From positions 1 through 64,000 of the IMG/VR virus record IMGVR_UViG_3300009008_002419: a stretch of 64,000 nucleotides of DNA. One strand, 5' to 3'. The translations under genes and the position numbers were made by a program. The DNA comes from a virus. Every line of letters begins with the position of its first letter. Within the stretch, counting starts at the first letter, position 1. The notes beneath the pieces were generated by a model. The model searched no databases and had not been told where the DNA came from. It worked only from the letters and a program-made list of their open reading frames with translations. Shown piece after piece: positions 659-27,746 of this stretch.

Positions 659-1300
659 ATGAGCAAATTTTTTAAAGAGGCTGGAGTTGGCTGGGATATA
701 CAAGCTTATAGTGTATCTCCTGAAAAGTTAGATAATACTCGAGCCGCCTTACAAAAAGCTGAAAAAGCTTATGATAAGAAGCTTAAAGCTACAATTGGAA
801 AAATGCCTTCTCGTACAAAGACTGTGGTAAAGAAAAAATTTTTTGGTTTGATTAAAAATAAAACTAAAAAATTTATGGACTATGACGAATATACTAATAG
901 TCCTAAATATCAAGCCTATCATAAAAAGTGGAAGGCTTATACAAAAAAGAATCCTATGCCTGAGAATGATTGGGAATTTAGGCGCAGACACCGGTTACAC
1001 AGTGATCATAAAAAGTATCCCACAAATTATAAGTTAAATATGAATATTGATGCCGGCTTTAGTAGTAAGTACTCAGGAAAATTAACAGACGAAGTGTATT
1101 CAGACACACCTAAGCGATATAATTTGTCCAAAGCTGAGTTAAGGGAAGCTTTAAAAGAATATAAGGCTAATGCAAAGCACTATAAAAAATCTTACCCTAA
1201 GGATCCTTATATTGATCCAGGAGTAAAGGCTTTTTCTGCAAAAGCTAAAGCTATATTAAAAGACCCTCGCGCTAAAACAATTAGATTTGAATACGAGTAA
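659..1300 (+). CDS. Basic hypothetical protein, candidate internal virion protein
   Basis: GGAG RBS; N-terminus MSKFFKEA carries the KxA motif. Confidence 0.65.
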   Translation: MSKFFKEAGVGWDIQAYSVSPEKLDNTRAALQKAEKAYDKKLKATIGKMPSRTKTVVKKKFFGLIKNKTKKFMDYDEYTNSPKYQAYHKKWKAYTKKNPMPENDWEFRRRHRLHSDHKKYPTNYKLNMNIDAGFSSKYSGKLTDEVYSDTPKRYNLSKAELREALKEYKANAKHYKKSYPKDPYIDPGVKAFSAKAKAILKDPRAKTIRFEYE

Positions 1301-1338
1301 CACATAAATCTCAACAAAGAAAGTGTGTAGGTGTAATA

Positions 1339-1860
1339 ATGATTAAAACACTAGTAAAAGAAATAGAAACTCGGAATAAACTACTACGTACCTTGTTAGA
1401 CCCAGATATTAATGGTGACTTTTATAGTAATATTCTCAAAACTATTCTTGAGGTTTCTCACAGTCAGTTTGGTTTTATAGGATACTCAGCTGAAGATACC
1501 GGCGATTTAGTCTGTCCGACTATGACTCACGATATCTGGGAGAAATGTCAGGTACCTGAGAAGGGCCTGATTTTCCCATTTGAAACATGGGGGCACTCTT
1601 GTGTATCTTCAGCTGAGTGTCTAAAGACCGGAGAAATAATAGTTAAGAATTCTTCTCCTCATAAAGTCCCTGAAGGGCACCTTTCTTTAGATCGCTCAAT
1701 CTCGATCCCGCTCAAGTCAGGATATAATGGTGAGCGTGAAACAATAGGAATAATAATCCTTGCTAATAAAGAAACTGATTATACGGAAGATGATATTAAG
1801 TTTTTAGAAACGTTAGCGGACACTCTAGGTCCGATGATAGATTTTAAGAGGCATGAGTAA
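1339..1860 (+). CDS. Stand-alone GAF domain protein
   Basis: FGFIGY, PEGHLSLDRSISIPL, IGIIILANKETDYTEDDIKFLETLA are typical of GAF sensor domains. Confidence 0.8.
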   Translation: MIKTLVKEIETRNKLLRTLLDPDINGDFYSNILKTILEVSHSQFGFIGYSAEDTGDLVCPTMTHDIWEKCQVPEKGLIFPFETWGHSCVSSAECLKTGEIIVKNSSPHKVPEGHLSLDRSISIPLKSGYNGERETIGIIILANKETDYTEDDIKFLETLADTLGPMIDFKRHE

Positions 1861-1894
1861 TAAAGTAACACATACACACAAAGGAAAGTATTAA

Positions 1895-2237
1895 ATGGAT
1901 AAAGCAGAAAAAGTATTTATAAAGTATGCGGCTGAAACAGGCGCAGTTGTAGGTAATTTATTAGGTGGCCCTCTCAGGGGCGGCAATAGGTGCTGGTAAA
2001 GATCGTCGTAGTCGTACATTTGGTGGCGCATGGTTAGGCGCTTTTCCTGGTGGCGTTTTAGCAAGCCTTGGTGCTTTTAAAGGGAAACTACCTTTACAGC
2101 TTGCAGGTTCTGCAATAGGAGCTCTTGGCGGAACCTTTGGTGCTTATAAAGGTTATCAGTCAGCAGTAAAGCGTAATAAAGAACATAATAAATTACGCAG
2201 TACTAGGAATAAACTTCGAACGGGACCGTTGGAATAG
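1895..2237 (+). pseudogene. Gly-rich basic protein interrupted by a single-base frameshift near 1976
   Basis: AAGGAAAG then ATG at 1895 reads MDKAEKVFIKYAAETGAVVGNLLGGPL; removing one base joins it to GAAIGAGKDRR of ORF 1965..2237; N-terminus parallels ORF 5272. Confidence 0.7.
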
Positions 2238-2274
2238 AAAAGATAGTAAAGTAAGATAATACTTAAGGTACTTA

Positions 2275-2643
2275 ATGAACAAACAAGCACTATCACCTAA
2301 AACACTTGCTCGTGCAAAAGCGCTTCGCGCTACGAGAATGCAGGCAACACAGGATAAAGCAGAGAGAGTGTGGCAATACAAGCAACACCTTATTCACTCT
2401 TCTAAATTCCGTGCCTTTGTAACTCCATTCTCTACTCGTAGGCGCAGAATCTTTCGGGAAGAGAAAAAGTATAAGGCATTAGAGAAAGATGTGGATAGGC
2501 AGCGGTCTAAGTGGAGGCGTACGAAGAACAGGCTTGAAAAGAATCCGATACCTAAAGCTGAAGTAGTTCCATTCCCAACTCAAAAAAAGCATAAAGCCAT
2601 TATAATGCCTTTATCAAGTCACCCAGCATTTAAGCAGTCATAG
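2275..2643 (+). CDS. Arg/Lys-rich hypothetical protein (KQALSPKT family)
   Basis: ORF; module shared with 2659..3177 and 5919..6710. Confidence 0.65.
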   Translation: MNKQALSPKTLARAKALRATRMQATQDKAERVWQYKQHLIHSSKFRAFVTPFSTRRRRIFREEKKYKALEKDVDRQRSKWRRTKNRLEKNPIPKAEVVPFPTQKKHKAIIMPLSSHPAFKQS

Positions 2644-2658
2644 AAAGTAAGTAAGTAA

Positions 2659-3177
2659 GTGGATAAAGCTACAGATAAAGCGCAACACATCTTTGAAAAA
2701 ATAGCCAAGCAATACGTAGGTCCAGGCGGAGGCACAGGCGTTACTCATAAGGGTACAGGTAAAGGCGGCATGCCTGCTGGTTATGATATTATCGATATCA
2801 ACAAGAAAAAGAAAAAGGGCATGATTACAAACTTTTTCGCTAAAACTGCAAAGAAAAAGTGTAAGAGTAAAAGTAAAAAAGTGCTCAAAACTACAACCAA
2901 GCAATTAGTCAAACAAGCACTCTCCCCCAAAACTATGGAACTCGCCCGAAGGGCAAGGTCAACTCGCTTAGACGCCACATGGAAAAAGATGGAGTCCTTT
3001 CGTCGTAAAGCCGATAAAGTAGAAAAGCATAAGTACTCTCTAAACCCTATCGTTAGCATCCGCGCGCGTAATCTTCATAAGTCATACCAGCAAACTGCTG
3101 ATAATATCGGCAAACGTTACCTCGCTGACTCGGACAAACTTTCACGCACGTACAGACGGATGTCCCCTCGTAAATAA
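2659..3177 (+). CDS. Lys-rich hypothetical protein (KQALSPKT family)
   Basis: GTG start; FEKIA, FAKTA and VKQA motifs. Confidence 0.65.
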   Translation: MDKATDKAQHIFEKIAKQYVGPGGGTGVTHKGTGKGGMPAGYDIIDINKKKKKGMITNFFAKTAKKKCKSKSKKVLKTTTKQLVKQALSPKTMELARRARSTRLDATWKKMESFRRKADKVEKHKYSLNPIVSIRARNLHKSYQQTADNIGKRYLADSDKLSRTYRRMSPRK

Positions 3178-3192
3178 GGTATAAGAATTATG
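3178..3192 (+). promoter_or_regulatory. GGTATAAG-class promoter motif
   Basis: GGTATAAGAATTATG, identical to 3685-3699, directly before a GAGGAGG RBS. Confidence 0.65.
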
Positions 3193-5271: not shown

Positions 5272-5658
5272 ATGAATAAAGCACAAGAAGTTTTTACAAA
5301 GTATGCTCTTTCACAAGGAGCTTTAACGGCCGCTGGCGCTGGGGTAATGACTGGGATTGGTTACTTAGGTTTTAGATCTAAACGTAAAGGAGAATCTACA
5401 GGGAAGGGTCAGGCTAAAGCTGTTGGACTTGGTGCCGCCTGGGGTGCAACTGCAGCAGGGATTGGTGGGAAAACCATGACTAAAACTTTAATGAAAGATC
5501 CAAAAACTTTTGAGATAGGGGCTAATTTAGCTTCAAAATTTTCTACACCTCGTGGTAAAGCTCTTGCCATGGCAGGTGGTGCACTAATTGGTGTAACAGG
5601 CGCTCCTATATATCATGGTCTTGGTAGATTATTTGGAAAAAAGAAAAAGGATAAGTAA
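5272..5658 (+). CDS. Gly/Ala-rich (glycine-zipper-like) basic protein, candidate virion cargo
   Basis: MNKAQEVFTKYA leader; GxxxG repeats. Confidence 0.7.
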   Translation: MNKAQEVFTKYALSQGALTAAGAGVMTGIGYLGFRSKRKGESTGKGQAKAVGLGAAWGATAAGIGGKTMTKTLMKDPKTFEIGANLASKFSTPRGKALAMAGGALIGVTGAPIYHGLGRLFGKKKKDK

Positions 5659-5918: not shown

Positions 5919-6710
5919 ATGCCCGCACCAGGATTTTTTCATAATATCGCAACGCGACTTCGTCTCAAGCTTGATGAGCATGAGAAGAAGCGCATTATGT
6001 CTAAGCGTAAAAAGCTGGACAAAAAATTAAAAACTCTTATAGATATAGAAAAGAAGCATCTCATGAATCTTAAAGATGACGCAATTAAAGAAACACAAAA
6101 AGTGGTTGAGCCTTTAACAAAACTAGGTTTTCGTAAAGAAGCAATTTCTAAAACGACAGCTCAAGTTGCGCGGGTAAAAGCAACAGCACGCCTGGATGCT
6201 ACACGCGTTCTGGCTGACGAAGCCTTCAAGAAAAAAGACTTTACGACATATCGCGCTCTTCTGGCAAAACTTAAGAAGTATGATAAGAATGAGAAGACAT
6301 TCTCTCAATACATCCACAAAGCGGCTCAGCAGAAACAATCTGCTGTTACAGTCGAAAGCATAGAACGTCGTATTGGTACTTATTTCAATGATAAGGAAGA
6401 AGAGACAGTACGTCGAATGATTGGACAGCAAAAGTCTCAGCGCTTCGCTCTCAGACATCCAGTACTCACAGGCATTCCAACTCTCGGGCGCGCTCCCGCG
6501 CTAGCGGAAAGGGATGCTAAACGTGCAGTTGTACACTCTCTTTTACGTAAAAAGTTGAAATATCAAAAGTCTTTAAAAGAAAAGCAAGAACTTGATCACA
6601 AGCGTATGTTAGAAAAAACTCGTGCGGATATGCCTAAAACCATTACAACTAAAGCAATTACAGCAGCTATGGCCGCTGCAACAGCGGGTAAAGCCTTAAG
6701 TTATTTATAG
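5919..6710 (+). CDS. Basic multi-segment hypothetical protein
   Basis: Internal RKEAIS...RLDAT module similar to ORFs 2275 and 2659. Confidence 0.65.
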   Translation: MPAPGFFHNIATRLRLKLDEHEKKRIMSKRKKLDKKLKTLIDIEKKHLMNLKDDAIKETQKVVEPLTKLGFRKEAISKTTAQVARVKATARLDATRVLADEAFKKKDFTTYRALLAKLKKYDKNEKTFSQYIHKAAQQKQSAVTVESIERRIGTYFNDKEEETVRRMIGQQKSQRFALRHPVLTGIPTLGRAPALAERDAKRAVVHSLLRKKLKYQKSLKEKQELDHKRMLEKTRADMPKTITTKAITAAMAAATAGKALSYL

Positions 6711-7014: not shown

Positions 7015-7776
7015 ATGGCAAAAGACAAGAAAAAAAAGAAACCTGTAAAGACATATCCAATTAGTCGTGCGTTGACTTCTATGGTTCCAGCGGGCATAGC
7101 TGCGGGACTTGGTGGAGTAGGTGGTTTAGCAGTGGGCTCTGGGTATGGTAAAGGTGTTGGGCGTTTGGTAGCATCTTTAGGCGGCGGCGCTTTAGGTGCA
7201 GCTTATGGTGGTACAATGATTGGCGGGTCTACTCTATTAAATAGACACATTCATGCTCGTGCACTCGCGGGACGTGAGGTACTAAATAAAAGAGATTGGG
7301 GAAGTGAAAAGCTTCTGAAGAAAGCTGATTTTGATAAGGCTGAGGTTGCTTTTATTAAAGAGTATTTTGATTTCGCTGAAAAGAAGGATCCTGGGTATTG
7401 GGCTTCTAATATGGCAGCATCTAGAGCACGGCGAGAGTCCGATAAAGGCTTTGGTAAGCTTATTGCAAAGCCTGAATTAATTAAAGCACGGATTAAAGGC
7501 AAGCTTGTTGGAGGCGGTAAAGGTCTGGCAGCTGGCGCTGCAGCGGGCGCAGTGGCAGGAGCAGCTATTACTAAGTCACGTGTAGGCGCGGGCATTGGCG
7601 CAACATTGAGTGGTTTATATGGTGGTGTCATCGGTGGTGTTTTAGGTCGTTACCAAGCTGATAAAAAATATTTAAAAGCTCGGGGAATTACTGTCAAAGA
7701 CGGTAAGACTCAATTAGATGATAACGCTAAAGCTAGGTACTTACATAAAAAGTATAAAGGTGGCGGCTACGAATAG
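7015..7776 (+). CDS. Two-module glycine-zipper-like protein
   Basis: Two GxxxG-rich segments separated by LLKKADFDKAEVAFIK. Confidence 0.7.
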   Translation: MAKDKKKKKPVKTYPISRALTSMVPAGIAAGLGGVGGLAVGSGYGKGVGRLVASLGGGALGAAYGGTMIGGSTLLNRHIHARALAGREVLNKRDWGSEKLLKKADFDKAEVAFIKEYFDFAEKKDPGYWASNMAASRARRESDKGFGKLIAKPELIKARIKGKLVGGGKGLAAGAAAGAVAGAAITKSRVGAGIGATLSGLYGGVIGGVLGRYQADKKYLKARGITVKDGKTQLDDNAKARYLHKKYKGGGYE

Positions 7777-7790: not shown

Positions 7791-9158
7791 ATGGGCAAAT
7801 ACTTCACTAAAACATCTATGTCCAAAAAGCAAGCTCCCGGAATTCCTGACCGCAACAAAATACAGTCAATCCCGAACATTTCGTCTCCGACGATTTGGGA
7901 AGGTGGTATACATCTTCATGAAGCTAAGCGTGCAGGGATTCATTATGATCTTCGGCTAGGGGATCCGTCTACCCACCACTCACATTCATGGGCTCTTAGA
8001 AAACTTCCAGCAGCTGGTGAAAAAGTTCTCGCTATTCATCAGCCTACTCATACACTTGAGTACATGGATTTTAAAGGTACTATTAAAGATGGATACGGCG
8101 CTGGTAAAGTAAAGCTTCACTTCCGAGATAAAATAGAGATTCTAGAGTCATCTGACAGACGTATACTCTTTAATCTCTACAAAGGTAATAAAACAGAAAA
8201 GTATGCCCTAATCAATCGCGGAGATAAGAATTGGATTTTATTCAATTATACTACGACTGATAAAGACAAACTTATTCCATTGACAAAGCCTTCTTATAAA
8301 GAGAAGGATTTTGACAACCTAGATACAGCAAATCCTAATGAGGTGTTTGCACCTAAGATGGATGGGGCTCATAACATCTTCATCCTCCGCCCTAACAAGC
8401 GTGTACAAACTTTCTCGTATCGACCTGCTAAGGGCCGTATTGAGCGAATTGATCATACGTATAAAACTGATTTGTACAAGCACCGTGCTCCCAGGTCATT
8501 AGGTACTACTGTAGTTCGAGGTGAGTTATACCTTCCTGGTAAGACCTCACCCGAAGTTGGCTCAGTCCTTAACTCGAATGTATTCCTGGCTAGAGAAAAG
8601 CAGGAAAAAGTGGGCCCACTTCAAAATGTAATGTTTGATGTAGTAACGTATAAAGGCAAAAATGTAGAAGCCTTGCCGTACCGTGAAAAGATTGAAATTC
8701 TTAAAAAGATTAATAAGGAATTCCCTCAAATGAAAGTTCCTTCATATGCTACGACACCACAAACGAAAAAGAATCTCGTTTCAGCTATAAAAGACAAGCA
8801 ACACACTGATACAGACGAAGGCGTAGTAATTTATAACCTTGATAGCCCACTTCCTATTAAAGCTAAAATTCGTAGAGACTACGATTTATATGTAAAAGGC
8901 TTCTACGAAGGAACTGGCAGGCTTAAAGGTAAGGGTGTTGGGGGCATTATAGGTACTGAATCTCCAACTTCGTCACAAGAAATACGAGTTGGTTCTGGAC
9001 TTACTGATAAACAGCGCCAGGACATGTATAATAATCCTAATAAATATGTTGGTAGACTTATTAAAATTTATGCACAAGAAAAATTAAAGAGTGGTAAATT
9101 CCGTATGCCTGTGTTTAAAGAGTTTAGGGATTATGAACGTTGGGTTAATAAGAAGTAA
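7791..9158 (+). CDS. LigD-type 3'-phosphoesterase fused to ATP-dependent DNA ligase
   Basis: PE motifs H..HYDLRL, SWA, H..EYMDFKGTI..GYGAG; ligase KMDG, GELY, FDV, EGVV, OB-fold VGSGLTD and RMPVF. Confidence 0.85.
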   Translation: MGKYFTKTSMSKKQAPGIPDRNKIQSIPNISSPTIWEGGIHLHEAKRAGIHYDLRLGDPSTHHSHSWALRKLPAAGEKVLAIHQPTHTLEYMDFKGTIKDGYGAGKVKLHFRDKIEILESSDRRILFNLYKGNKTEKYALINRGDKNWILFNYTTTDKDKLIPLTKPSYKEKDFDNLDTANPNEVFAPKMDGAHNIFILRPNKRVQTFSYRPAKGRIERIDHTYKTDLYKHRAPRSLGTTVVRGELYLPGKTSPEVGSVLNSNVFLAREKQEKVGPLQNVMFDVVTYKGKNVEALPYREKIEILKKINKEFPQMKVPSYATTPQTKKNLVSAIKDKQHTDTDEGVVIYNLDSPLPIKAKIRRDYDLYVKGFYEGTGRLKGKGVGGIIGTESPTSSQEIRVGSGLTDKQRQDMYNNPNKYVGRLIKIYAQEKLKSGKFRMPVFKEFRDYERWVNKK

Positions 9159-12414: not shown

Positions 12415-13509
12415 ATGGGCGTACTATCGGTTCCTAAAAAATCTTTGTCCAAATCAGTATTTACTGACACACAGAAGATACATCCTAATGTACGTGAGTT
12501 TATACTTAAGCAGTTAGATAGCGTTGTCCCTAAACAAGCTATAAATGAAATATTTGTAATGGGATCAATTACAGGGTTTAAGTATGATTTAGATTCTGAT
12601 ATTGACGTGTCTGTTTACGTTACGCCCACTACTGAGATTGATTCACAGGCATACGCTAACTTCTTGCACGCGGTTGCGCGCAGGCAAGTCAATGGTATAG
12701 TGCCCACCAACACGACACACCCAATTAATTTTTACATTAAAAATTATCATGAAAACGCCCGAGCTATGTATGAGTCAGCGGATTTTGGCGTCTATGATCT
12801 AATTGCAGACAAGTGGCTGCGCGAACCAACGGTACCACTCAATGTCCGTGATCCAAAAGAACAATTTCCGCTTGAACTTATGATTGCTAAAGCATACGAA
12901 GATCGGTTTGCTAAGGCAGTATCTAAAGAAGATATAAATCGTATTGTTCAGATGACTCGTAGTATTAAGCAAGACCGTGAGTTTGCATACGGCTATAGCT
13001 GGGGTGTGCCAAGACACAGTTTCAAGAACATCTTATATAAGACCTTTGAGAAAGGGCCCTATCATAATGTATTTGAAGAAGCTAAAAATCTTGAGCGCGC
13101 ACAACGTAAAAAGAAAGAACACACACGTGAGAAGCAAGCTGCCTCATTAAAAGATTATTCTAATTATTATAAAGATGTAATTGATCATAAGAAAAAAGTG
13201 TATAAAGCGGGACGACAACTTCATGCTCCCCGAATTCAATTACTAATGCATGATTGGGATAAACTTGTTCACCCTAAAATGGTAAAGCATTATACTAATT
13301 TCTTTTTTGCTAAAGAAAGAAGTCCTGAGACTATAAAAGGATTTATCCAAGCAGCTGAGGGTCATAAACGTAGACAAGCACACCATTTACGACCTTTAAC
13401 AAGCACTCCTAAAAATGTAAGAAAAGAAATTCTTGCAGATTGGTATGCTTCTCAAACCCGAACAGAGCCTAATCTCACTCTAAGTGAATTTATAGGTAGA
13501 ATGCGCTAA
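12415..13509 (+). CDS. Pol-beta-family nucleotidyltransferase fused to an HD-like domain
   Basis: MGSITG..SDIDVSV NTase motif; after EKQAA: HK..V, HDWDK, H....HH, EILADW (DUF5662-like). Confidence 0.75.
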   Translation: MGVLSVPKKSLSKSVFTDTQKIHPNVREFILKQLDSVVPKQAINEIFVMGSITGFKYDLDSDIDVSVYVTPTTEIDSQAYANFLHAVARRQVNGIVPTNTTHPINFYIKNYHENARAMYESADFGVYDLIADKWLREPTVPLNVRDPKEQFPLELMIAKAYEDRFAKAVSKEDINRIVQMTRSIKQDREFAYGYSWGVPRHSFKNILYKTFEKGPYHNVFEEAKNLERAQRKKKEHTREKQAASLKDYSNYYKDVIDHKKKVYKAGRQLHAPRIQLLMHDWDKLVHPKMVKHYTNFFFAKERSPETIKGFIQAAEGHKRRQAHHLRPLTSTPKNVRKEILADWYASQTRTEPNLTLSEFIGRMR

Positions 13510-15165: not shown

Positions 15166-16215
15166 ATGATGATAACAGTTTACGACGTCAATAATTTCGG
15201 AAAACAAGCCTCCGAAGATTATGTGCGAAACGATACACCACTTAATGACACCATCGTTAAGTTAGCTTCTGCCAATGGGTTAACTAAAAATCAAGTTGAT
15301 CGTGTGGTAGAAGCTGCCAATAATGAGACGTATTTATCTTTGCTAAAAACAGCAGAAGATAAGTATGTTGAGTTCCCATTAGCAAACACAAAAGAAGTTT
15401 TTTCTGAAATAGAAAAAGAGGCCAAGGTGTTAAATACCAATTTATCTGATTATGATGCGCCTCCAGTTCCTACTCAGGAAGAACTCCCTTCATTAACAGA
15501 CTCAGCGATTTTTGGCGACTTGACAAAAGCCGCCTCACACGAAGAGTCTCATGGAGACAAAATCAGAGGTGCTGAAGCAAGAAAAATGAGTGCTGAGCTC
15601 AAAGGTACTCACATCTTCTTAAAGAACGCAGCTGATGAAGCTTCTGTCCAGTTTGCTAAAACATATGATACCCTCACACATCTAATTAAGCAAGCAGTGT
15701 TGAATGGTACGACTTTTAATGATATAGTTCAAATCAATGAACAGTCAATGCCAATGTTAAATACTGCTATTACTCCAGAATTTAAAGAATCCTTAGCATT
15801 GGATATGCCTCGCTTTGACTTTGATAAAGAAGCTCAACACACTCATCCTAATCCTGGCAGCTCAGTTTACCAAGCTGGGGTAGACCTGGAAAAGGTCGCA
15901 GAACAATACATGAGAATCCGTTGTGCTATGGATCATTACGAAGACGAGCATACTACACTCCAAGACTCTACTAATGAGAAGCTCGTTCCTTTAGTTAAAA
16001 AAGCTAAGAATATGGAAGAAGAAATTGCTCGAAAAGCAGTTAAGCAATATCGTAGAGAAGTTTGGGGTAAGAGATTTAAAAAACTCCCCGCCGCAGCACT
16101 AGCAGCCGCTGGAGCTGGAGTTGTTTATCACCTAGGTAAAAATAAAGGTATCACAGAACAAAATCAGGTTCTTAAAGAACAGTTCTTGGACCCTAAACTT
16201 TATAAGAGGTATTAA
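15166..16215 (+). CDS. Putative head/core virion protein
   Basis: Between TerL and protease; about nine KxA motifs; hydrophobic C-terminal segment. Confidence 0.6.
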   Translation: MMITVYDVNNFGKQASEDYVRNDTPLNDTIVKLASANGLTKNQVDRVVEAANNETYLSLLKTAEDKYVEFPLANTKEVFSEIEKEAKVLNTNLSDYDAPPVPTQEELPSLTDSAIFGDLTKAASHEESHGDKIRGAEARKMSAELKGTHIFLKNAADEASVQFAKTYDTLTHLIKQAVLNGTTFNDIVQINEQSMPMLNTAITPEFKESLALDMPRFDFDKEAQHTHPNPGSSVYQAGVDLEKVAEQYMRIRCAMDHYEDEHTTLQDSTNEKLVPLVKKAKNMEEEIARKAVKQYRREVWGKRFKKLPAAALAAAGAGVVYHLGKNKGITEQNQVLKEQFLDPKLYKRY

Positions 16216-16268
16216 ATGGCCAATATAGATCCTAGAAAAGTAATGGCCAATATAGATCCTAGAAAAGT
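16216..16268 (+). repeat. 27-bp-period tandem duplication
   Basis: ATGGCCAATATAGATCCTAGAAAAGT twice (MANIDPRKV x2). Confidence 0.95.
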
Positions 16269-16680
16269 TTTAACAACCTTGGCGTTTGGTGCCGCTTTAG
16301 TTGGAGCTAATGCTTTGTTTGAAGGGGCACAAAAGCTCAAAACTAAAATGAATAAAGAGCCGTCTTTTAAGCGTATGATGGACATGCACCCCCAGCTTCA
16401 TAAAATGGATCCAAATGAAGTATTAAAGTATTGGGACAACCTTTATCACTTCGCTCCGAAAATGGCTCAAGAGCCTCTAGCAGCGGGCGCTTATATTCTT
16501 CAAGTAAGTCGTATGGATGACTTTGGTGGACCAACCACTGACACTATTAAATCCATTACTGAAATTCAAGATAAGGTTGGCCCAGGTAAGAAAGAGAATA
16601 GACTTACTGAATCTAACTTATTTATGAATGCTATTGCTGGTATGGCTGACCTTCCAACACACGGAAAACCAACTCCCTAA
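16216..16680 (+). CDS. Hypothetical head-module protein
   Basis: Abuts both neighbours; duplicated N-terminus. Confidence 0.65.
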   Translation: MANIDPRKVMANIDPRKVLTTLAFGAALVGANALFEGAQKLKTKMNKEPSFKRMMDMHPQLHKMDPNEVLKYWDNLYHFAPKMAQEPLAAGAYILQVSRMDDFGGPTTDTIKSITEIQDKVGPGKKENRLTESNLFMNAIAGMADLPTHGKPTP

Positions 16681-18437
16681 TGGACAAAATAATAGAGTAT
16701 CAATACGGAGACCATAACTCTGAAGTTGTCTCTTTAATTTCATCTCAGAATCTGCACAAAAAAGCAGAGTACTCAGATGAGTTAAAAGAGTATGTTACTT
16801 TCTTGAAAAAGAAAGTGGATAAAACGTATGCTCTAGTTAATGCTCTTTCAGCTGGTGAACACTATGGTTGTAATAGAAATGGTGATTATTTCCCTGAAGA
16901 TGTACTTCAACGATATCACAAAACGTTCGAAGCACTGGGACATGTTTATAAACACCATGTAAATAAGGACCCTAAGAGGTCTTTTGGCAAGGTTATATTT
17001 TCACACTATAACCCCAGTATGCATAGAGTAGAGCTTATAATTGAGCTTGATAATACTCGTGCTTCAGATATTATCGAACGTCTTGAGAAACAAATAGAAG
17101 ATGTTAAAGTTTCTATGGCGTGTCGAGTTCCTTACGATGTGTGCTCTATTTGTGGTCACAAAGCACGCAAGCTTTCAGAGTATTGTGACCATTTAAAAGA
17201 AAAAATGGGCCGTATGCTAAGCGATGGTCGTAGAGTGTATGCGATTAATACAATGCCCAAGTTTTTTGACATAAGTGTAGTAACAATCCCTGCAGACAGG
17301 ACCGCAGGATTTATTGCTAAAGTGGCGTCTCATACTTCAACAGTTGAAGTTGATGAGTACACCCCAAGTGCTAAGATTGCAGAAGATCTATTTAAAGAGA
17401 GTGATTTAGAGTCAACTGCTGATATTAAGAAGAAAGTGGATGCTGAGCTTAAAGCTCTGTCTCCTGATCCTCATAAACTTCTTCTTAAAACTCATGGAAA
17501 CTTAACTAAAGATAAACTAGTCAAGTTATCTGAGTACCCACTTAATGAAGTTCTTTCGACAATGATCGGCTTACGAATGATGCCGAAGAAAGATGACTTC
17601 ATGAAGTTAGCGCTTTACTCTTTAGGACACCAAGATTTTGCAGAAGATGTAGCAAACTCGGATTATACTTTTGGTGTTGAAGAAGCAATAGAACCGCAAG
17701 ACGTATCCTGTGATAACTTTAATGTTAAAATAGCAGAGTTGTTAAAAGAAGATGTTCCCCAGTTAACTCTGACAAAGCCTTTCATTATTGCAAGAGCATT
17801 TGAAAAAGTGGCGGAAACATCGGAACCTTGTCAAAAATATGGGTCTGTACTTGAAAAGTACGGATACGATAACTCTGACGAAACTCGTTCTGAGTGGCCT
17901 AAACAAAACGAAAAAAAGCCAAGCAAACTACAAGAGATTTTCTTAGGAACTGAGGAGCCCCCCAATCTCAGTCCTAGGCAAAATCCTTTAGTACCAATGG
18001 CAGTTCTTGGCGGTTTGTACACAGGTTATGCCAAGCTTTTTAAAAAAGCTTTTGATACAGGTGGATTTACTGGGTTACTAGGGAAATATCCCTGGATTGC
18101 CCCCCTGTTAATTGGCGCTGGAACAGTTGGATCATTGAAATTACAAGATCTCTATTTCAACAAAACTGCGAGTGCAGGAAAACTTTTACCCGCGATGATA
18201 TTTGCTGGATTACCAACGAGTTATTTATATGCTGGAATCCAAGAAGCAAAAGTTAGAAAAGGAAAACCTATTTCTAAACTACAAAACTTTGTAAGGAAGC
18301 ACCCATTCCTTTCAACATTAATCGCAACAGGAGCAACTGGCGCAGGTATAGGTTTAATTAAACGAGCTAGTGTAATTTCACAAATGGACGAGGGATCTAT
18401 TAATTCAATTTACGAAGACTTAATCAAGGAGAGTTAA
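16680..18437 (+). CDS. Prohead maturation protease with long C-terminal extension
   Basis: NRNGDYF, YKHH.N, GKV, VSMAC...CSIC, FFDISVV..PAD match phage prohead serine proteases; upstream of scaffolds and capsid. Confidence 0.75.
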   Translation: MDKIIEYQYGDHNSEVVSLISSQNLHKKAEYSDELKEYVTFLKKKVDKTYALVNALSAGEHYGCNRNGDYFPEDVLQRYHKTFEALGHVYKHHVNKDPKRSFGKVIFSHYNPSMHRVELIIELDNTRASDIIERLEKQIEDVKVSMACRVPYDVCSICGHKARKLSEYCDHLKEKMGRMLSDGRRVYAINTMPKFFDISVVTIPADRTAGFIAKVASHTSTVEVDEYTPSAKIAEDLFKESDLESTADIKKKVDAELKALSPDPHKLLLKTHGNLTKDKLVKLSEYPLNEVLSTMIGLRMMPKKDDFMKLALYSLGHQDFAEDVANSDYTFGVEEAIEPQDVSCDNFNVKIAELLKEDVPQLTLTKPFIIARAFEKVAETSEPCQKYGSVLEKYGYDNSDETRSEWPKQNEKKPSKLQEIFLGTEEPPNLSPRQNPLVPMAVLGGLYTGYAKLFKKAFDTGGFTGLLGKYPWIAPLLIGAGTVGSLKLQDLYFNKTASAGKLLPAMIFAGLPTSYLYAGIQEAKVRKGKPISKLQNFVRKHPFLSTLIATGATGAGIGLIKRASVISQMDEGSINSIYEDLIKES

Positions 18438-18441
18438 ACTA

Positions 18442-19104
18442 ATGGCAAGTCAAGGTATGAAACTTGATGATATTCTTGCTCGATTAGAAGCTACTGAGGA
18501 AGAGAAAACTGCAGAAGAAAAACTTGTAGATGGTCTTTCTGACGACGAAACTACTGACACAGACACCGAGGAAAGTTCCGAATCCGACGATGATGCGAAA
18601 ACAGAAGAAGACACCGATTCTGAAAAAAGCGCAGAGGCAGAGGATGAAGTTAAAGAAAAAGGAACTAAAACAGAAGATGACGAAGCTCTTTTAAAAGTTG
18701 CTGCTGACATTGAATTCCAAGGACAGCTTTTAGCCCGTAGTTTTGTAGATGAGTTGCAGAAGATTGCTGTTGGCGATGGTCCTTATACAGGTAACAGTGC
18801 CGATGCAAATAAATCTGTCAACCAGTTACCCACAGGAGATGTTCCTGAAGCAGGTAAAGTGGATGCAGTTATTGCAAAGTTACAGCAACTAACTGGTGCA
18901 ACCGAGGCAAGTCAGCCATCATTTGAGATCGCTGGAGATTCACAGCCAGCTCCCAAAAAGGTTACCGACGAAGCTCAGGGTACCGTTGCTGCAGACGCAG
19001 CTCTAGCAGTTTCTCATGCAGCCGCCCTGCCCGTATCGGCTGGCGGACAAGAAAAAACCGCTTCTGATGAGATAGTAAGTAAAATTTATGGACACTTTTT
19101 TTAA
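18442..19104 (+). CDS. Acidic scaffold-like protein 1
   Basis: Asp/Glu-rich; repeated EKxA; position in head module. Confidence 0.65.
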   Translation: MASQGMKLDDILARLEATEEEKTAEEKLVDGLSDDETTDTDTEESSESDDDAKTEEDTDSEKSAEAEDEVKEKGTKTEDDEALLKVAADIEFQGQLLARSFVDELQKIAVGDGPYTGNSADANKSVNQLPTGDVPEAGKVDAVIAKLQQLTGATEASQPSFEIAGDSQPAPKKVTDEAQGTVAADAALAVSHAAALPVSAGGQEKTASDEIVSKIYGHFF

Positions 19105-19122: not shown

Positions 19123-19704
19123 ATGGCTAGCACATATTTAGAAAGATACGAAGAGTTGAAAAATATGGAAAAGGCTGCTACTGAATCTGAAGCTCTTGAA
19201 ACTCAGAGAAAAGAAGTCATCGAAAAGTACGCCTCACTGGCTACAGACTTACTGACAGAAGAGCATGGAGAAGGTAACTTCTCTAATGAAGACATCGAAA
19301 AATTAGCAGTTTATATGATTGATCACGATATTGAAGCTGAAGAGAATATTGAAAAAGAAGCAGAAAACACTGACAGTGAAGAGGATCCTAAAGAAGTAAT
19401 TGAAAAGTATGCCGCTTTTGCTGATAATCTTTTAGCTGAAGAGTATGGTGAAGATTATGAAGAAGAGGACGTAGTTAAGTTAGCAACGCTGTTAATTGAA
19501 GACGACCTCCAGGCGGAAGAATTAGAAAAGTATGCTGAGTTTGAAGTGGCTGGACAAGTCATGGCAGCAAGTTTCTTAGACGCTCTTTCTGACACAGCGG
19601 AAGACGCTGAAGAAGAGAAGGTAGCGGAAGAAGAAGAAAAAACCGCCGCTGAAAATATTGTAGACACTATTTATGGTAATTTTTTCCCAGAAGATTCTGA
19701 GTAA
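19123..19704 (+). CDS. Acidic scaffold-like protein 2 with internal duplication
   Basis: KEVIEKYA...KLA repeated twice; nine KxA motifs. Confidence 0.65.
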   Translation: MASTYLERYEELKNMEKAATESEALETQRKEVIEKYASLATDLLTEEHGEGNFSNEDIEKLAVYMIDHDIEAEENIEKEAENTDSEEDPKEVIEKYAAFADNLLAEEYGEDYEEEDVVKLATLLIEDDLQAEELEKYAEFEVAGQVMAASFLDALSDTAEDAEEEKVAEEEEKTAAENIVDTIYGNFFPEDSE

Positions 19705-19729: not shown

Positions 19730-20053
19730 ATGGAAAAAAGTTTAAAACAAGAAGCTGCTGAAGCCATTCGAATCTTACGTGAAGACTTAAGCGAGCTTCA
19801 GGAAAAGATTGCTTCGATGTCTGAAGCTCGTGAACTTCTTCTTTCTTTGTACAAAGAAGGCAGTCTAACTGCGGAGGATGTATTAGAGCAGTTAGAAACA
19901 TATGAGGCTAAAGATAAAAGTGAATTAGAAGTTATTAAGAAAGCGATAGAGCTTAATGGCACGTCGAAAGAATTTGTATTCGGCCATTTAAGCGAGCGTT
20001 TTCAAGATGACGGTTCTTTAGATCCCATAACAAGAATGTTACTAGAAGATTAA
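19730..20053 (+). CDS. Small helical head-assembly protein
   Basis: Position; QEKIA motif. Confidence 0.55.
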   Translation: MEKSLKQEAAEAIRILREDLSELQEKIASMSEARELLLSLYKEGSLTAEDVLEQLETYEAKDKSELEVIKKAIELNGTSKEFVFGHLSERFQDDGSLDPITRMLLED

Positions 20054-20514: not shown

Positions 20515-21441
20515 ATGGATATTTCTGCGAGCACAATTAATGAGCTCTTTGTAGAAAAGTTAAACTCTCCTGATGGCATGGAAAAAGTCGCCGCCGAGGG
20601 TTCAGCTTTCATCAGACAGAAACTACGTGAAGTTTCTTTTGCAAGAAAAATTATACAGCCTGAATACGTTACTAAAGCCGACTGCCAGCGCTCAGTCAAT
20701 CACGACGGCTTAGTAAAAATCGTGGATATCGAACCTGATTCTCAAGCCATGACTGTCAACTTCCGTGGGCAGCCTGACACTAACTACGTAATGGGCGAAA
20801 GATACGAGATTCCTTTCTTCGCTATTTCTTCTGAAGATTTCCAGAAGACTGAAGAAGAACTCCTAGCTTACGAGATGCCTCTTACGGAAGTTATCGAGAG
20901 AAACTCTGTAAAAGATATTCAGAAGATTGAAGACACATCCTTCCTGACGCAGGTTGATGCAGCTATCACTTCTAGCTCATTAACTGCTACCGCCAACTGG
21001 GGCGCTGCCACAGGTATCATCCCTAAAGCCGGTTTCTTCGATCTGTTTAACCTCTTAGATAGTAATGAGCTCAAAGCTGAGACTATGCTTATGAGCACTC
21101 CTACTTATAACAGACTCTTCCTGTATGACGCGACTACAGTCGGTGATCAGGTGGGTAGCGAAATTGCCGTTAATGGCTACACTTATCAGCAGTTCCTGGG
21201 ACGTAAGCTTATTGTTTCTAATAAGACCGATCTCTTAACCGCTAACAGTGGCGCTACTGAGTACGTTTACATCTTTGCGGGACAAGAGTTCTTAGGAAAC
21301 TTCTTCATCCTTAACGATACCAAATTCTGGATCGATAAGCAGAAGAATATTATTTCCTGGGCAGCTTATGAAACGCTGGGAATGGGTATTGGTAATATCA
21401 ATGCCTGCGGTAGACTTACACTCACAGTTGATTCTGAATAA
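20515..21441 (+). CDS. Major capsid protein (HK97-fold inferred)
   Basis: TAAGGAG RBS, biased codon use, last gene of head module, followed by strong terminator. Confidence 0.75.
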   Translation: MDISASTINELFVEKLNSPDGMEKVAAEGSAFIRQKLREVSFARKIIQPEYVTKADCQRSVNHDGLVKIVDIEPDSQAMTVNFRGQPDTNYVMGERYEIPFFAISSEDFQKTEEELLAYEMPLTEVIERNSVKDIQKIEDTSFLTQVDAAITSSSLTATANWGAATGIIPKAGFFDLFNLLDSNELKAETMLMSTPTYNRLFLYDATTVGDQVGSEIAVNGYTYQQFLGRKLIVSNKTDLLTANSGATEYVYIFAGQEFLGNFFILNDTKFWIDKQKNIISWAAYETLGMGIGNINACGRLTLTVDSE

Positions 21442-25686: not shown

Positions 25687-25698
25687 TTTAATTAAAAC

Positions 25699-25727
25699 TT
25701 GACAAAATCTGTAACTTAAAGTATATT
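25699..25727 (+). promoter_or_regulatory. sigma70-type promoter, probably leaderless transcript
   Basis: TTGACA-N17-TATATT-N6-ATG. Confidence 0.7.
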
Positions 25728-25733
25728 ACTAAC

Positions 25734-25901
25734 ATGAGACTTATACCCTTTCCTCCCGAAGAAGATTTGAATAGAAGAACGGAAGAACCTACCGAAGACC
25801 AAATAGTTCGGGAGGTTTTGGATAATTATAGAGATAAAGATTCTCTTCATACTTTTTTAAATAAGGATATATCTCTGACTAAACGCATAAAGGGTATCTA
25901 A
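25734..25901 (+). CDS. 55-aa hypothetical protein
   Basis: Not in ORF track; MRLIPFPPEED...KRIKGI; stop 1 nt before next ATG. Confidence 0.6.
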   Translation: MRLIPFPPEEDLNRRTEEPTEDQIVREVLDNYRDKDSLHTFLNKDISLTKRIKGI

Positions 25902-25902
25902 T

Positions 25903-26892
25903 ATGCCACGAACTTATGATTACTGGTATGGCGGAGACTCTGCTCCTGATGGAGACTGGCTAGAAACTTCAGTTTATAAACAGACGAATAATGCTGTTTT
26001 AGACATTAAAAAGATTTTTATTAGTTTTGCTCAAAAGTATTTTGAAAATCATATTCGATTTACTTGGAACTCTGATTTACGAACAACTAAATTAATTGTT
26101 GCTGATAAGAATGCTATTGAATTAGAGGTTTTAGATACAAAGCCAGGAGTTATACTATCGAGGGGTGCTCATCGTTGGGCAATGGTCGCTGGTCAAAAAG
26201 GTATTGGTGAAACTAAAAAAGATTTTATGTTTCCTGATGGTATCGAGACACTTGAAGGCGCTCTAACGGATACTGATTTATCTCGACAAGAATACAAAGA
26301 TTTAATTGAAGGTACAGTAACCTTTAATTGTATCTCCCGTAATGGCTTACAAGCTGAAGAAGTTGCGAATGAATTGTTCATGGCTTTAACAGTCTTTAAA
26401 GCTGAAATTAAAAAGCACGGAATCCATATGATTCATGGAATTACTATGGGTGAAGAAGGAATTGTTCGTTCAAATTCTGGTATTGAGTTAGAAGTAGTAC
26501 CGGTTACTTTACAATATTCTGCTCAACGAACTGTTACATCATCAATGAAAACTTATGACATGGTTGTAACTTATGATGATGAAACAATTTATGAAGGAAT
26601 TCATTATAGAGTTTCTCCTGCTGCAAGTGGTTTAGATTATGACACACTTGTATTTAGAACGATTCCACCAGATGGAACTGAAATTATTGCGACCTATGCA
26701 AACTTAATTACACTCGAACAAGTTGTGGATGATGTGTCATCGCAGGTTGATGAAGACGGCGAAAATTATGAGTTTAATTTAAGTACTCGTGCATACGGTT
26801 ATTATAAAATTGTTCGTGATATTTGGGTAACAACAGATATTTTAAATAGTGGGATTGAAGAAGAAACAGTAGTGAGTGGTATATGGCCTTAG
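25903..26892 (+). CDS. Putative tail terminator/completion protein
   Basis: Position near sheath; PGVILSRG, GTVTFNCISRN..QAEEVA. Confidence 0.5.
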   Translation: MPRTYDYWYGGDSAPDGDWLETSVYKQTNNAVLDIKKIFISFAQKYFENHIRFTWNSDLRTTKLIVADKNAIELEVLDTKPGVILSRGAHRWAMVAGQKGIGETKKDFMFPDGIETLEGALTDTDLSRQEYKDLIEGTVTFNCISRNGLQAEEVANELFMALTVFKAEIKKHGIHMIHGITMGEEGIVRSNSGIELEVVPVTLQYSAQRTVTSSMKTYDMVVTYDDETIYEGIHYRVSPAASGLDYDTLVFRTIPPDGTEIIATYANLITLEQVVDDVSSQVDEDGENYEFNLSTRAYGYYKIVRDIWVTTDILNSGIEEETVVSGIWP

Positions 26893-27746
26893 AGAAACAA
26901 GCTTATTCTGCAATTTTAGCTCGTTTAGCGCCTTTACTTAAGCATCTTGGTAAATTACGCAATGTTGGTAAAGCCACGGATGTTGGTGAAAGTGCGTATA
27001 AGGGATTTAAAGGTGCTAAAGGATTGGGCAGGGGCGGTACTGGTTTTGTAGCTTCGTATCGATCTGCTTTATCACAAGCACGCAAGTTTGGTTATAAGGG
27101 TGTAGCTAAGTGGGGACGCAATAGTTATAATGTTGGCCCTCGCGCAAGTTCGCGTGTGAATACTTTTGCTAAGGCACAACGTGCAGGACGATTAGCAGAG
27201 AGATCTAAAGGTAGTATAACGGGTGCTCCAATTCGTTTCTTACAAAAGGGTATTGGTGAAGTTGCTTATGCAACCCGTAATCCTTTCAGATTCGCTAAAG
27301 ATTTTGGCCGCCACATAGACAAAAAAACTATTAGCATTTCTAAGGCTACTGGTAAAAAACCACAGCTTTATGAACGTGGTGGACAGACATTTTTTAAGCC
27401 TAAGTTAGGCAAAGAGAGAAAAGTATTAGGTTTTACATCAAAGGGTGATGCGATTGTAAAACGTAATGTAGGTGGAAAAACTGTTGCTCTCGGTTTTTCT
27501 GGACCTGGTTTTGGAGCTCAAGAATTACTTTTTAAGAAAGACCAACATGGTAACCCACTTACCATGAACCAACGTCGAAACAAAGCTCTAAAAGAAACAG
27601 TACTGTGGTCAGCTGCTCCTAAATTTACTGGAACAGCGTTAATTGGCAAAATAGTTGTAGACAGTGGAAAATTTTTAACGAGCATGAACAAACAAGCAAG
27701 TCTAGACGATCTAGGCTTTAAAAAACAACTAACCAAATTAAAATAA
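26883..27746 (+). CDS. Highly basic Gly-rich protein, candidate virion cargo
   Basis: MALEKQA leader and MNKQA near the C-terminus. Confidence 0.65.
   Translation: MALEKQAYSAILARLAPLLKHLGKLRNVGKATDVGESAYKGFKGAKGLGRGGTGFVASYRSALSQARKFGYKGVAKWGRNSYNVGPRASSRVNTFAKAQRAGRLAERSKGSITGAPIRFLQKGIGEVAYATRNPFRFAKDFGRHIDKKTISISKATGKKPQLYERGGQTFFKPKLGKERKVLGFTSKGDAIVKRNVGGKTVALGFSGPGFGAQELLFKKDQHGNPLTMNQRRNKALKETVLWSAAPKFTGTALIGKIVVDSGKFLTSMNKQASLDDLGFKKQLTKLK

What the first reader, a model, noticed from the sequence alone, without database searches (positions are those of the whole stretch)
659..27746. Arm-wide K-x-A/S motif: candidate capsid-targeting and protease-processing code for injected cargo
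Seen: head proteins are dense in [F/L/I/E]-x-K-x-A (protease LHKKA, IAKVA, FEKVA; scaffolds with 5 and 9 copies; ORF 15166 with about 9; capsid MEKVA). The same motif closes a short N-terminal leader on otherwise unrelated proteins: MSKFFKEA (659), MDKAEKVFIKYA (1895), MNKQA (2275), MDKATDKAQHIFEKIA (2659), MNKAQEVFTKYA (5272), MGKYFTKTSMSKKQA (ligase), MALEKQA (26883). It also sits at domain junctions (5919, 7015, 12415). Known: T4 internal proteins use a short N-terminal capsid-targeting sequence removed by the prohead protease. Inference: this phage tags many basic, glycine-zipper and enzymatic proteins for packaging, cleavage after KxA and injection, some as polyproteins.
Basis: partly seen in the sequence, partly recalled or inferred. 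Interest (0 to 1): 0.85.

Follow-up and report, generated by a model that had tools for sequence, protein, structure and literature searches.

The report
Lys-x-Ala head-protease code with cargo leaders
This marine phage fragment marks its head-scaffold proteins, its capsid protein and the short N-terminal tags of several unrelated proteins with the motif hydrophobic-x-Lys-x-Ala, most likely the cutting site of its own T4-type head protease and so a T4-like way of loading and trimming capsid cargo, written in a code not described before.

Summary
The statistics split the claim.

**Head module (15166-21441).** [FLIE]-x-K-x-A occurs 27 times against 3.9 expected. K-x-A is also the most enriched of 1600 gapped dipeptides in the head modules of this phage, Salmonella phage Arash and Vibrio phage D181.

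**The protease.** The N-domain of gene 16680 has the T4 gp21 / herpes assemblin fold. Sites bracket that domain, close a conserved 26-residue capsid propeptide and riddle the scaffold proteins. The mature capsid body has none (0 against 11.5 expected in 10 homologues).

**The "arm-wide" claim is wrong.** K-x-A is depleted in the bodies of the cargo-region proteins (14 against 26.6), and K-x-S is not enriched.

**N-terminal leaders.** In the window alone they are marginal (4 of 23, p about 0.04-0.08). In relatives they are clear: 18.9% of N-termini against 4.9% of internal windows, p 6e-9. Leaderless homologues start at the predicted cut. Bodies of leader-bearing proteins avoid K-x-A (28 against 56.8).

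**Reading.** This looks like a T4-like capsid-targeting and processing system with a new, Ala-P1 specificity. Cleavage, packaging and injection have not been measured.

First readers of this scan noted the same motif in a related genome, and follow-ups described analogous leader systems in other phages.

The parts
16680..18437 (+). Prohead protease protein (585 aa). The catalytic domain is about residues 30-216 (nt 16767-17327), bracketed by sites K27-x-A29 and K214-x-A216. The C-terminal extension carries 7 more sites.
   Evidence: PHROG head maturation protease hit. AF2 model pLDDT 77. T4 gp21 Z 10.2 and herpes assemblins Z 9.0-9.4. K27, A29, H93 and S145 are invariant in 33 homologues. In 120 homologues KxA is 1112 against 493 expected.
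15166..16215 (+). All-helical head-core or scaffold-like protein with 10 K-x-A sites, predicted to be cut into pieces of 15-69 aa.
   Evidence: 10 sites against 3.3 expected. All 17 homologues carry 7-15 sites. K32/A34 and K121/A123 are invariant, the latter inside a hypervariable, disordered linker.
16216..16680 (+). Small hydrophobic head-module protein. The window copy has no N-terminal site (one site at K82), but 13 of its 21 homologues begin with a leader ending in the motif.
   Evidence: Family 5: MKYIYKKA, MSKAAEVFDKLA, MNKEYVLEKLA and others.
18442..19104 (+). Acidic scaffold protein with 5 sites. The first (EEKTA, K22) is positionally conserved in relatives.
19123..19704 (+). Acidic scaffold protein with 9 sites against 1.5 expected.
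19730..20053 (+). Small head-module protein with 2 sites. Homologues have a site within the first 12 residues.
   Evidence: family 8.
20515..21441 (+). Major capsid protein. The predicted propeptide is residues 1-26 (nt 20515-20592), ending MEKVA|A.
   Evidence: PHROG major head protein. All 10 distinct homologues have K-x-A at residues 16-38 and none in the rest of the protein (0 against 11.5 expected).
659..682 (+). Type-1 leader MSKFFKEA on a 213-aa Lys-rich protein (659-1300) with no other K-x-A.
   Evidence: The same M-[GSA]-K-F-F-K-x-A start occurs on unrelated proteins of relatives.
1895..1930 (+). Type-2 leader MDKAEKVFIKYA on a glycine-zipper protein whose frame is broken near 1965.
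2275..2289 (+). Five-residue leader MNKQA before the module LSPKT..A..R.TR..AT.
   Evidence: The same module follows VKQA at residue 88 of protein 2659.
2659..2706 (+). Type-2 leader MDKATDKAQHIFEKIA (GTG start).
2911..2919 (+). Internal junction site K85-Q-A87 of protein 2659, directly before the module shared with 2275.
   Evidence: BLASTP, 16/28 identical, E 3e-06.
5272..5307 (+). Type-2 leader MNKAQEVFTKYA on a 128-aa glycine-zipper protein.
6135..6143 (+). Junction site K73-E-A75 of protein 5919 (LGFRKEA|ISKTT...), followed by the same module as in 2275 and 2659.
   Evidence: The preceding LGF-x-K-x-A matches the type-3 leaders of relatives.
7318..7326 (+). Junction site K102-K-A104 of protein 7015, between two glycine-zipper halves and followed by DFDKAEVAFIKEY, which resembles a type-2 leader.
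7791..7835 (+). Fifteen-residue extension MGKYFTKTSMSKKQA on a LigD-phosphoesterase plus ATP-dependent DNA ligase.
   Evidence: Pfam domains. Three leaderless homologues start M(T)PIGIPDR where the window protein reads KQA|PGIPDR. Caveat: Pro at P1'.
13132..13140 (+). Site K240-Q-A242 between the nucleotidyltransferase and DUF5662 domains of protein 12415. The window copy has no leader.
   Evidence: Homologues carry M-x-KFFK-x-A or a similar tag directly before the conserved G-I-L-D start, and others begin MS-L-L-D (family 2).
26883..26903 (+). Possible seven-residue leader MALEKQA on a 287-aa Lys-rich protein among the neck and tail genes. Weakest case, with no comparators.

Best explanation
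The motif [L/I/F/M]-x-K-x-A, usually followed by S, E or A, is the recognition and cutting site of the phage's own prohead protease. That protease is the N-terminal T4 gp21 / herpes-assemblin-fold domain of gene 16680.

During head maturation the protease would do four things:
- Free itself from its flanks by cutting after A29 and A216.
- Remove a 26-residue propeptide from the capsid protein.
- Chop the helical core and scaffold proteins (15166, 18442, 19123, 19730) into small peptides.
- Remove short N-terminal leaders that end in the same motif.

The leaders come in three recurring forms: M-x-K-F-F-K-x-A, M-D-K-A-x-x-V-F-x-K-Y-A and ..L-G-F-x-K-x-A. They sit on otherwise unrelated proteins. 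In the window these are a Lys-rich 213-aa protein, three glycine-zipper or basic proteins, and probably the DNA ligase. By analogy with the T4 capsid targeting sequence, the leaders bring these proteins into the prohead, where they meet the protease.

Shown here: the enrichment, its conservation, the placement of sites, the protease fold and the avoidance of the motif in mature bodies.

Inferred: that cutting occurs and falls after Ala, that the leader is what targets the protein, and that the cargo is injected.
For: Motif enrichment:
- Head module: 27 against 3.9 for [FLIE]xKxA, with controls flat.
- K-x-A ranks first of 1600 gapped dipeptides in three phages whose proteases are 38-40% identical. 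The logos agree.
- Genome-wide in Arash and D181, the most enriched proteins are the head-module ones.
- In 120 protease homologues K-x-A is at 2.26 times expectation, against 0.91 for A-x-K.

Protease fold: T4 gp21 Z 10.2, rmsd 3.0 over 128 residues; herpes proteases Z 9.0-9.4.

Site placement:
- Sites bracket the folded domain; pLDDT is below 50 for residues 1-28 and 218-254.
- K27 and A29 are invariant.
- Every capsid-protein homologue has one site at the propeptide boundary and none in the body (0 against 11.5).
- In the 15166 family, K and A within sites are conserved at 0.62 and 0.53, against 0.28 and 0.26 for other K and A.

Leaders:
- 32/169 N-termini against 53/1073 internal windows in relatives (p 6e-9); the reversed motif is at 3.6%.
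- 30-33 of 105 families upstream of TerL carry a leader.
- Leaderless homologues of the ligase and of the 12415 family begin at the predicted cut.
- The same module follows K-x-A at an N-terminus and at two internal junctions.
- Synonymous variation in type-2 leaders points to selection on the peptide.
- An exact DNA scan for M-x-KFFK-x-A finds multi-hit contigs only in this clade.

Avoidance:
- Bodies of leader-bearing proteins have K-x-A at 0.49 of expectation (28 against 56.8), with KA, AK, KxxA and AxxK flat.
- Window cargo bodies: 14 against 26.6, p 0.002.
- Minus arm 1.26 and tail 0.98.
Against: - No cleavage, virion proteome or N-terminal sequence exists for this phage or, at peptide level, for any relative. 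The Arash paper lists virion proteins only, with no mention of protease or cleavage.
- Leader sites differ from head sites: P5 is mostly Phe and P1' is K/G/N/V rather than S/E/A.
- The ligase site has Pro at P1'.
- In the window alone, leader enrichment is marginal and three of the leaders are paralogues.
- Arash shows no leader enrichment and D181 only a modest one.
- Many 15166 sites lie inside predicted helices.
- The record is a fragment (CheckV 31%), so cargo counts are incomplete.
Confidence: 0.65

Rival explanations
1. The motif is the protease site and the leaders are cut, but the leader-bearing proteins are transient prohead-core or assembly components. They would be membrane-anchoring glycine-zipper proteins or DNA-mimicking or condensing fillers that are degraded or expelled, not cargo delivered to the next host.
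For: - Several are glycine-zipper or Lys-rich low-complexity proteins with no enzymatic domain.
- The 16216 family sits inside the head module and often carries a leader.
- T4 and SPN3US propeptides and core proteins mostly leave the head (PMC10052503).
Against: - The bodies avoid K-x-A, which argues that they must survive the protease intact.
- Enzymes carry leaders: a ligase in the window, and SNF2 helicases and a nucleotidyltransferase in relatives.
Confidence: 0.2
2. K-x-A is a structural or binding motif of helical scaffold proteins, for example a helix-capping or scaffold-capsid contact motif, and not a cleavage site. The N-terminal occurrences would then reflect paralogy and N-terminal Lys bias.
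For: - Many sites in 15166 and the scaffolds lie in predicted helices.
- E-K pairs are common in helices.
- The minus arm also shows mild K-x-A excess, 1.26-1.33 times expectation.
- Window N-termini outside the cargo block show 7.5% against 3.1%.
Against: - Some sites are invariant inside disordered, indel-rich linkers.
- Sites bracket the protease domain.
- A single conserved site sits at the capsid propeptide boundary, with none in the body.
- Motif avoidance is specific to leader-bearing proteins.
- Leaderless homologues start at the site.
- The reversed motif is not enriched.
Confidence: 0.08
3. The leaders act at the level of translation or mRNA. A/T-rich codons (AAA TTT TTT AAA) just after the start codon would favour initiation of late genes, and they end in K-x-A by coincidence.
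For: - The KFFK codons are invariant AAA TTT TTT AAA in eight genes.
- The genome is AT-rich.
Against: - Those are simply the preferred codons.
- Type-2 leaders vary synonymously while keeping the peptide.
- The leader always closes with K-x-A.
- Leader presence or absence maps to the mature N-terminus of homologues.
- The bodies avoid the motif.
Confidence: 0.05

Closest known systems
Phage T4 capsid targeting sequence (CTS) on internal proteins IPI-III and Alt, removed by prohead protease gp21 (Mullaney and Black 1996, as cited in PMC9024508 and PMC10052503)
   Same: - A short N-terminal tag sits on unrelated proteins and ends in the head protease's own motif.
- The protease has the same fold (Z 10.2 to gp21).
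- Scaffold and core proteins carry many sites, and the capsid protein has an N-terminal propeptide.
   Different: - The motif is hydrophobic-x-Lys-x-Ala, not Leu/Ile-x-Glu.
- There are at least three leader forms rather than one.
- Tags are 5-16 residues long.
- There is no sequence similarity to MKTYQEFIAE.
- Packaging and cutting are untested here.
Giant phage prohead proteases: SPN3US gp245 and phiKZ gp175, motif A-x-E with Ser preferred at P1' (PMC10052503)
   Same: - A T4-type protease processes many head and ejection proteins.
- Long propeptides are cut at several sites.
- Ser is preferred at P1'.
- Relatives of the window phage are also large, up to 228 kb.
   Different: - P1 is Ala and P3 is Lys here, against P1 Glu and P3 Ala.
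- SPN3US propeptides are mostly long (111-254 residues) with no shared short leader.
Herpesvirus assemblin (maturational serine protease), which cuts (V/L/I)-x-A|S at its M and R sites (established knowledge, recalled, not tested here)
   Same: - Same fold (Z 9.0-9.4).
- Inferred cut after Ala, with Ser common at P1'.
- The protease is fused to a scaffold-like C-terminal extension and releases itself by self-cleavage at flanking sites.
   Different: - Lys at P3 and a hydrophobic residue at P5 are required here.
- This is a bacterial virus.
- Herpesviruses have no cargo leaders.
Phage P1 DarB N-terminal capsid localisation signal (PMC9024508)
   Same: The N-terminal 30 residues are sufficient to load a large enzyme or a reporter into the capsid.
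   Different: P1 Dar proteins share no consensus leader and no link to the protease motif.

Membership tests
T4 gp21 / herpesvirus assemblin-fold prohead serine protease | Assemblin-type fold of the catalytic domain | tested here: met
   AF2 model with pLDDT 77. VIA-align gives T4 gp21 5jbl_A Z 10.2, rmsd 3.0, 128 aligned, and VZV, PRV and HSV proteases Z 7.7-9.4. Foldseek probabilities are 0.85-0.99 although the E-values are weak.
T4 gp21 / herpesvirus assemblin-fold prohead serine protease | Conserved catalytic His and Ser | tested here: inconclusive
   H93 and S145 are invariant in 33 homologues, and an intein interrupts the conserved VPYDVC segment in some. Residue-level superposition on the catalytic residues of gp21 was not available.
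T4 gp21 / herpesvirus assemblin-fold prohead serine protease | Encoded in the head module beside scaffold and capsid genes | tested here: met
   The gene order is TerL, 15166, 16216, protease, two acidic scaffolds, two small genes, then the capsid protein. The same order holds in relatives.
T4 gp21 / herpesvirus assemblin-fold prohead serine protease | Proteolytic activity and self-processing | not testable with these tools
   Only inferred, from the invariant K27-x-A29 and the site at 214-216 that flank the folded domain.
T4-type capsid targeting sequence system | One short N-terminal leader shared by otherwise unrelated proteins | tested here: met
   After masking the first 25 residues, leader-bearing proteins fall into 30-33 separate families. 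The recurring forms are listed. In the window alone there are 5-7 proteins.
T4-type capsid targeting sequence system | The leader ends in the cleavage motif of the phage's own prohead protease | tested here: inconclusive
   Leaders end in hydrophobic-x-K-x-A, the motif enriched in head proteins. The motif has not been shown experimentally to be the cut site, and the P5 and P1' preferences differ.
T4-type capsid targeting sequence system | The leader is sufficient to load a protein into the prohead and is removed there | not testable with these tools
   Indirect support only: bodies of leader-bearing proteins avoid K-x-A.
T4-type capsid targeting sequence system | Sequence relatedness to the T4 CTS or an L/I-x-E motif | tested here: not met
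   The motif is K-x-A. No Glu-P1 pattern appears among the ten most enriched gapped dipeptides printed. The system works like the T4 one but is not a sequence relative of its tag.

The most novel reading that the evidence does not exclude
A widespread clade of large marine and enteric phages uses one portable Lys-x-Ala code for two jobs. The code is read by a T4-fold protease with herpes-like Ala-P1 specificity. The first job is to dismantle the scaffold. The second is to load, trim and co-inject a changing set of unrelated proteins: a DNA ligase with a 3'-phosphoesterase domain, SNF2 helicases, a nucleotidyltransferase, glycine-zipper membrane proteins and histone-like basic proteins. Genes would gain or lose the tag freely, and some cargo would be made as polyproteins cut at module junctions.
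Probability: 0.4. Interest if true: 0.75.

Novelty: new variant of a known kind. Interest (0 to 1): 0.62.

Why it matters
- Published prohead-protease codes for T4-fold enzymes cut after Glu (T4 L/I-x-E; phiKZ and SPN3US A-x-E). This clade points to a Lys-P3 / Ala-P1 code closer to that of herpesvirus assemblin, which bears on how specificity evolved within one fold shared by phages and herpesviruses.
- The code allows prediction from sequence of mature capsid N-termini, scaffold fragments and capsid cargo for hundreds of uncultured phages (491 protease homologues at E <= 0.001).
- The motif-avoidance signature is a general, experiment-free way to ask which proteins meet the protease.
- Cultured relatives (Arash and Vibrio phages D69/D148/D181) share the head motif, so it can be tested directly.
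- If the short leader is sufficient for loading, it would be a compact tag for packaging proteins into phage capsids.

Tried and rejected
- blastn of the head module against cultured phages: no match.
- Sequence search of the protease protein against PDB: only chance hits.
- Pfam on the head proteins: nothing.
- BFVD fold search with the 15166 model: no meaningful match, so its role as core or scaffold is inferred from its position, helicity and site density.
- Portal search (Pfam Portal_T4 and Phage_portal, plus BLAST with the Arash head-module proteins): none in the record, which is a fragment.
- Arash paper: a virion protein list only, with no peptide-level or cleavage data, and 116 proteins detected, which suggests carry-over.
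- Arash genome: no N-terminal leader enrichment, so its proteome cannot test the leader idea.
- Literature searches for a Lys-x-Ala or Ala-P1 phage protease motif found nothing relevant. Absence from the held library is not proof of absence.
- K-x-S as part of the motif: rejected.
- The "arm-wide enrichment" reading: rejected, since the cargo bodies are depleted instead.

Full report
**What the window is.** The window is the first 64 kb of a 93.8-kb linear virus record with an estimated completeness of 31%. It is therefore a fragment of a larger, uncultured marine phage.
- The plus strand carries tail genes (64-94 kb) and then a block of small, Lys-rich, mostly unannotatable genes (0.6-9 kb).
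- It continues with a DNA ligase, the large terminase (13511-15094) and the head module (15166-21441): a 349-aa protein, a small hydrophobic protein, a 585-aa protease protein, two acidic scaffolds, two small proteins and the capsid protein.
- Neck and tail genes follow, up to 30 kb.
- The minus strand holds replication, nucleotide and glycan genes.
- No portal was found in the record.

**Check of the observation.** Shuffles that keep each protein's composition give a split result.
- In the head module, [FLIE]-x-K-x-A occurs 27 times against 3.9 expected (z 11.5) and K-x-A 37 times against 15.3. A-x-K, KA, AK, K-x-x-A and A-x-x-K are at expectation.
- K-x-S adds nothing.
- Outside the head module there is no enrichment. 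In the "cargo" block 659-9158 K-x-A is depleted (20 against 32.7).
- So the motif is real and strong, but it is a head-module feature and not an arm-wide one.
- N-terminal leaders in the window alone are only marginally more frequent than chance (4 against 1.3, p 0.036; p 0.08 against internal windows). Three of them are paralogous.

**The motif is conserved across a clade.** TerL-based searches fetched 24 related viral contigs. Protein searches found cultured relatives: Salmonella phage Arash and Vibrio phages D69/D148/D181, with TerL 29-31% and protease 38-40% identical.
- An unbiased scan of all 1600 gapped dipeptides put K-x-A first in the head modules of the window phage, of Arash and of D181, with L-x-K next or near.
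- The three logos agree: L/I/F/M at P5, Glu favoured at P4, Lys at P3, Ala at P1, and Ser/Glu/Ala at P1'.
- Ranked genome-wide, the most enriched proteins of Arash and D181 are their head-module proteins.
- In 120 homologues of the protease protein K-x-A is at 2.26 times expectation and A-x-K at 0.91.

**The enzyme.** Residues about 42-217 of the 16680 protein, modelled with 33 homologues (pLDDT 77), align best with the T4 prohead protease gp21 (Z 10.2, rmsd 3.0, 128 residues). Herpesvirus assemblins come next (Z 9.0-9.4).
- H93 and S145 are invariant.
- In some relatives an intein interrupts the conserved VPYDVC segment.
- The family has at least 491 members in metagenomes and no Pfam model.

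**Where the sites lie.**
- In the protease protein, K27-x-A29 is invariant. Together with K214-x-A216 it brackets the folded domain; the model is disordered before residue 29 and after 217.
- The C-terminal extension is site-rich: 453 against 186 expected in homologues, while the catalytic domain has 55 against 67.
- Every one of 10 distinct capsid proteins has one K-x-A at residues 16-38 and none in the remaining 270 or so residues (0 against 11.5 expected). This fits a short propeptide and a mature protein that must resist the protease.
- The 15166 protein is all-helical with disordered linkers. Its 17 homologues are only 23-38% identical to it, yet each has 7-15 sites. Two sites are invariant, one of them in a hypervariable, indel-rich linker.
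- This is the pattern expected of a core or scaffold protein that is degraded to peptides, as T4 core proteins are.

**The leaders.** In relatives, 32 of 169 distinct non-head proteins encoded upstream of TerL have hydrophobic-x-K-x-A within their first 22 residues.
- That compares with 4.9% of internal 22-residue windows of the same proteins (odds ratio 4.5, p 6e-9). The reversed motif is at 3.6%.
- After masking the first 25 residues, these proteins fall into 30-33 unrelated families.
- Three forms recur: M-[GSA]-K-F-F-K-x-A, M-[DNST]-[KR]-A-x-x-[VI]-F-x-K-[YIL]-A and ..L-G-F-x-K-x-A. The window has the first form (659) and the second (1895, 2659, 5272).
- Type-2 leaders vary synonymously, so the peptide is what is conserved.
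- An exact DNA scan of IMG/VR for M-x-KFFK-x-A found 44 stretches. The contigs with several hits at ORF starts include four contigs already in the TerL-relative set and one further 210-kb contig not checked for membership. Two of their tagged proteins are SNF2 helicases.

**Boundaries.** Three homologues of the window ligase start M(T)PIGIPDR where the window protein reads MGKYFTKTSMSKKQA|PGIPDR.
- In the 12415 family, some members carry M-x-KFFK-x-A or a similar tag directly before the conserved G-I-L-D, and others start MS-L-L-D.
- The module LSPKT..A..R.TR..AT follows K-x-A after the 5-residue start of 2275, at residue 88 of 2659 and (as ISKTT...) at residue 76 of 5919.
- In 7015 the site between two glycine-zipper halves is followed by a relic of a type-2 leader.
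- These cases place the functional boundary directly after the Ala.

**Avoidance.** The bodies (residue 23 onward) of leader-bearing proteins contain K-x-A at 0.49 of expectation (28 against 56.8).
- K-x-G is at 0.55, while KA, AK, K-x-x-A, A-x-x-K, KG and GK are flat.
- The window's cargo block shows the same depletion (14 against 26.6, p 0.002).
- The minus arm (1.26) and the tail proteins (0.98) do not.
- Enrichment where cutting is useful and depletion where it would be harmful is what exposure to a K-x-(small)-specific protease predicts. It is independent of the leader statistics.

**What remains unshown.** Nothing has been measured.
- The Arash paper gives a virion protein list without peptide-level data.
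- Leader sites prefer Phe at P5 and have no Ser/Glu preference at P1'. They may therefore be read differently, or serve a second purpose such as binding the scaffold.
- The ligase site has Pro at P1'.
- Arash has the head motif but no leader enrichment, and D181 only a modest one. The leader system is thus a feature of the marine subclade.
- Whether the cargo is injected or only transiently present in proheads is open.

**Comparison and novelty.** The system works like the T4 capsid targeting sequence with gp21, and like the giant-phage proteases (PMC9024508, PMC10052503), and the protease shares their fold.
- The code differs: Lys at P3 and Ala at P1, against Glu at P1 in T4 and in phiKZ/SPN3US. 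The inferred cut after Ala, with Ser often at P1', recalls herpesvirus assemblin (from established knowledge, not tested here).
- I found no published description of this motif.
- Within this scan, first readers noted the same K-x-A saturation in a related genome (e1-5814062, e1-5814075). Follow-ups described analogous leader systems in other phages, one of them Ala-cutting (e1-5666511).
- I file it as a new variant of a known kind.

Noticed in passing
window 1895-2237: The leader-bearing glycine-zipper gene is split. ORF 1895 stops after 33 codons, and the protein continues in another frame as ORF 1965-2237. The break lies around GGTGGCCCTCTCAGG (1962-1976). It could be an assembly error, a pseudogene or a programmed shift.
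   Followed up: partly
L004:12434-15307, L013:10768-13635, and P0004, P0005 and others: Inteins (LAGLIDADG and Hint domains) are inserted in the prohead protease at the conserved VPYDV|C segment in many relatives. TerL of L003 and L004 is also enlarged (868-917 aa), probably by an intein.
   Followed up: partly
window 17142-17195 (protease residues 155-171): C155, C158 and C169 are invariant and H171 nearly so within the protease domain (CxxC...CxH). This looks like a zinc-binding insert, unusual for gp21/assemblin-fold proteases.
   Followed up: no
window 16216-16269: The small head-module protein begins with an exact tandem duplication, MANIDPRKV MANIDPRKV (a 27-nt repeat).
   Followed up: no
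window 7791-9158 and 11056-11481: The ligase combines a LigD-type 3'-phosphoesterase domain with an ATP-dependent ligase. A second, stand-alone phosphoesterase-like paralogue lies at 11056-11481 (same BLAST family).
   Followed up: partly
window 1339-1860: A GAF-domain protein (Pfam GAF_2, E 1e-15) is encoded inside the block of small basic cargo-like genes. It has no leader.
   Followed up: no
whole record (G000): The record is linear with CheckV completeness of 31%, and no portal gene was detected. Relatives reach 180-228 kb, so the phage is probably much larger than 94 kb.
   Followed up: partly
window 659-9158 and relatives: K-x-G is depleted as strongly as K-x-A in the bodies of leader-bearing proteins (0.55 of expectation), and K-x-S mildly (0.73). 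Neither is enriched in head proteins. The protease may tolerate small residues at P1.
   Followed up: partly
window 4058-5020: A 320-aa protein has histone-like Lys/Ala-rich tails at both ends and weak homing-endonuclease-like hits in the middle (LAGLIDADG/HNH, E about 0.004-0.015).
   Followed up: no
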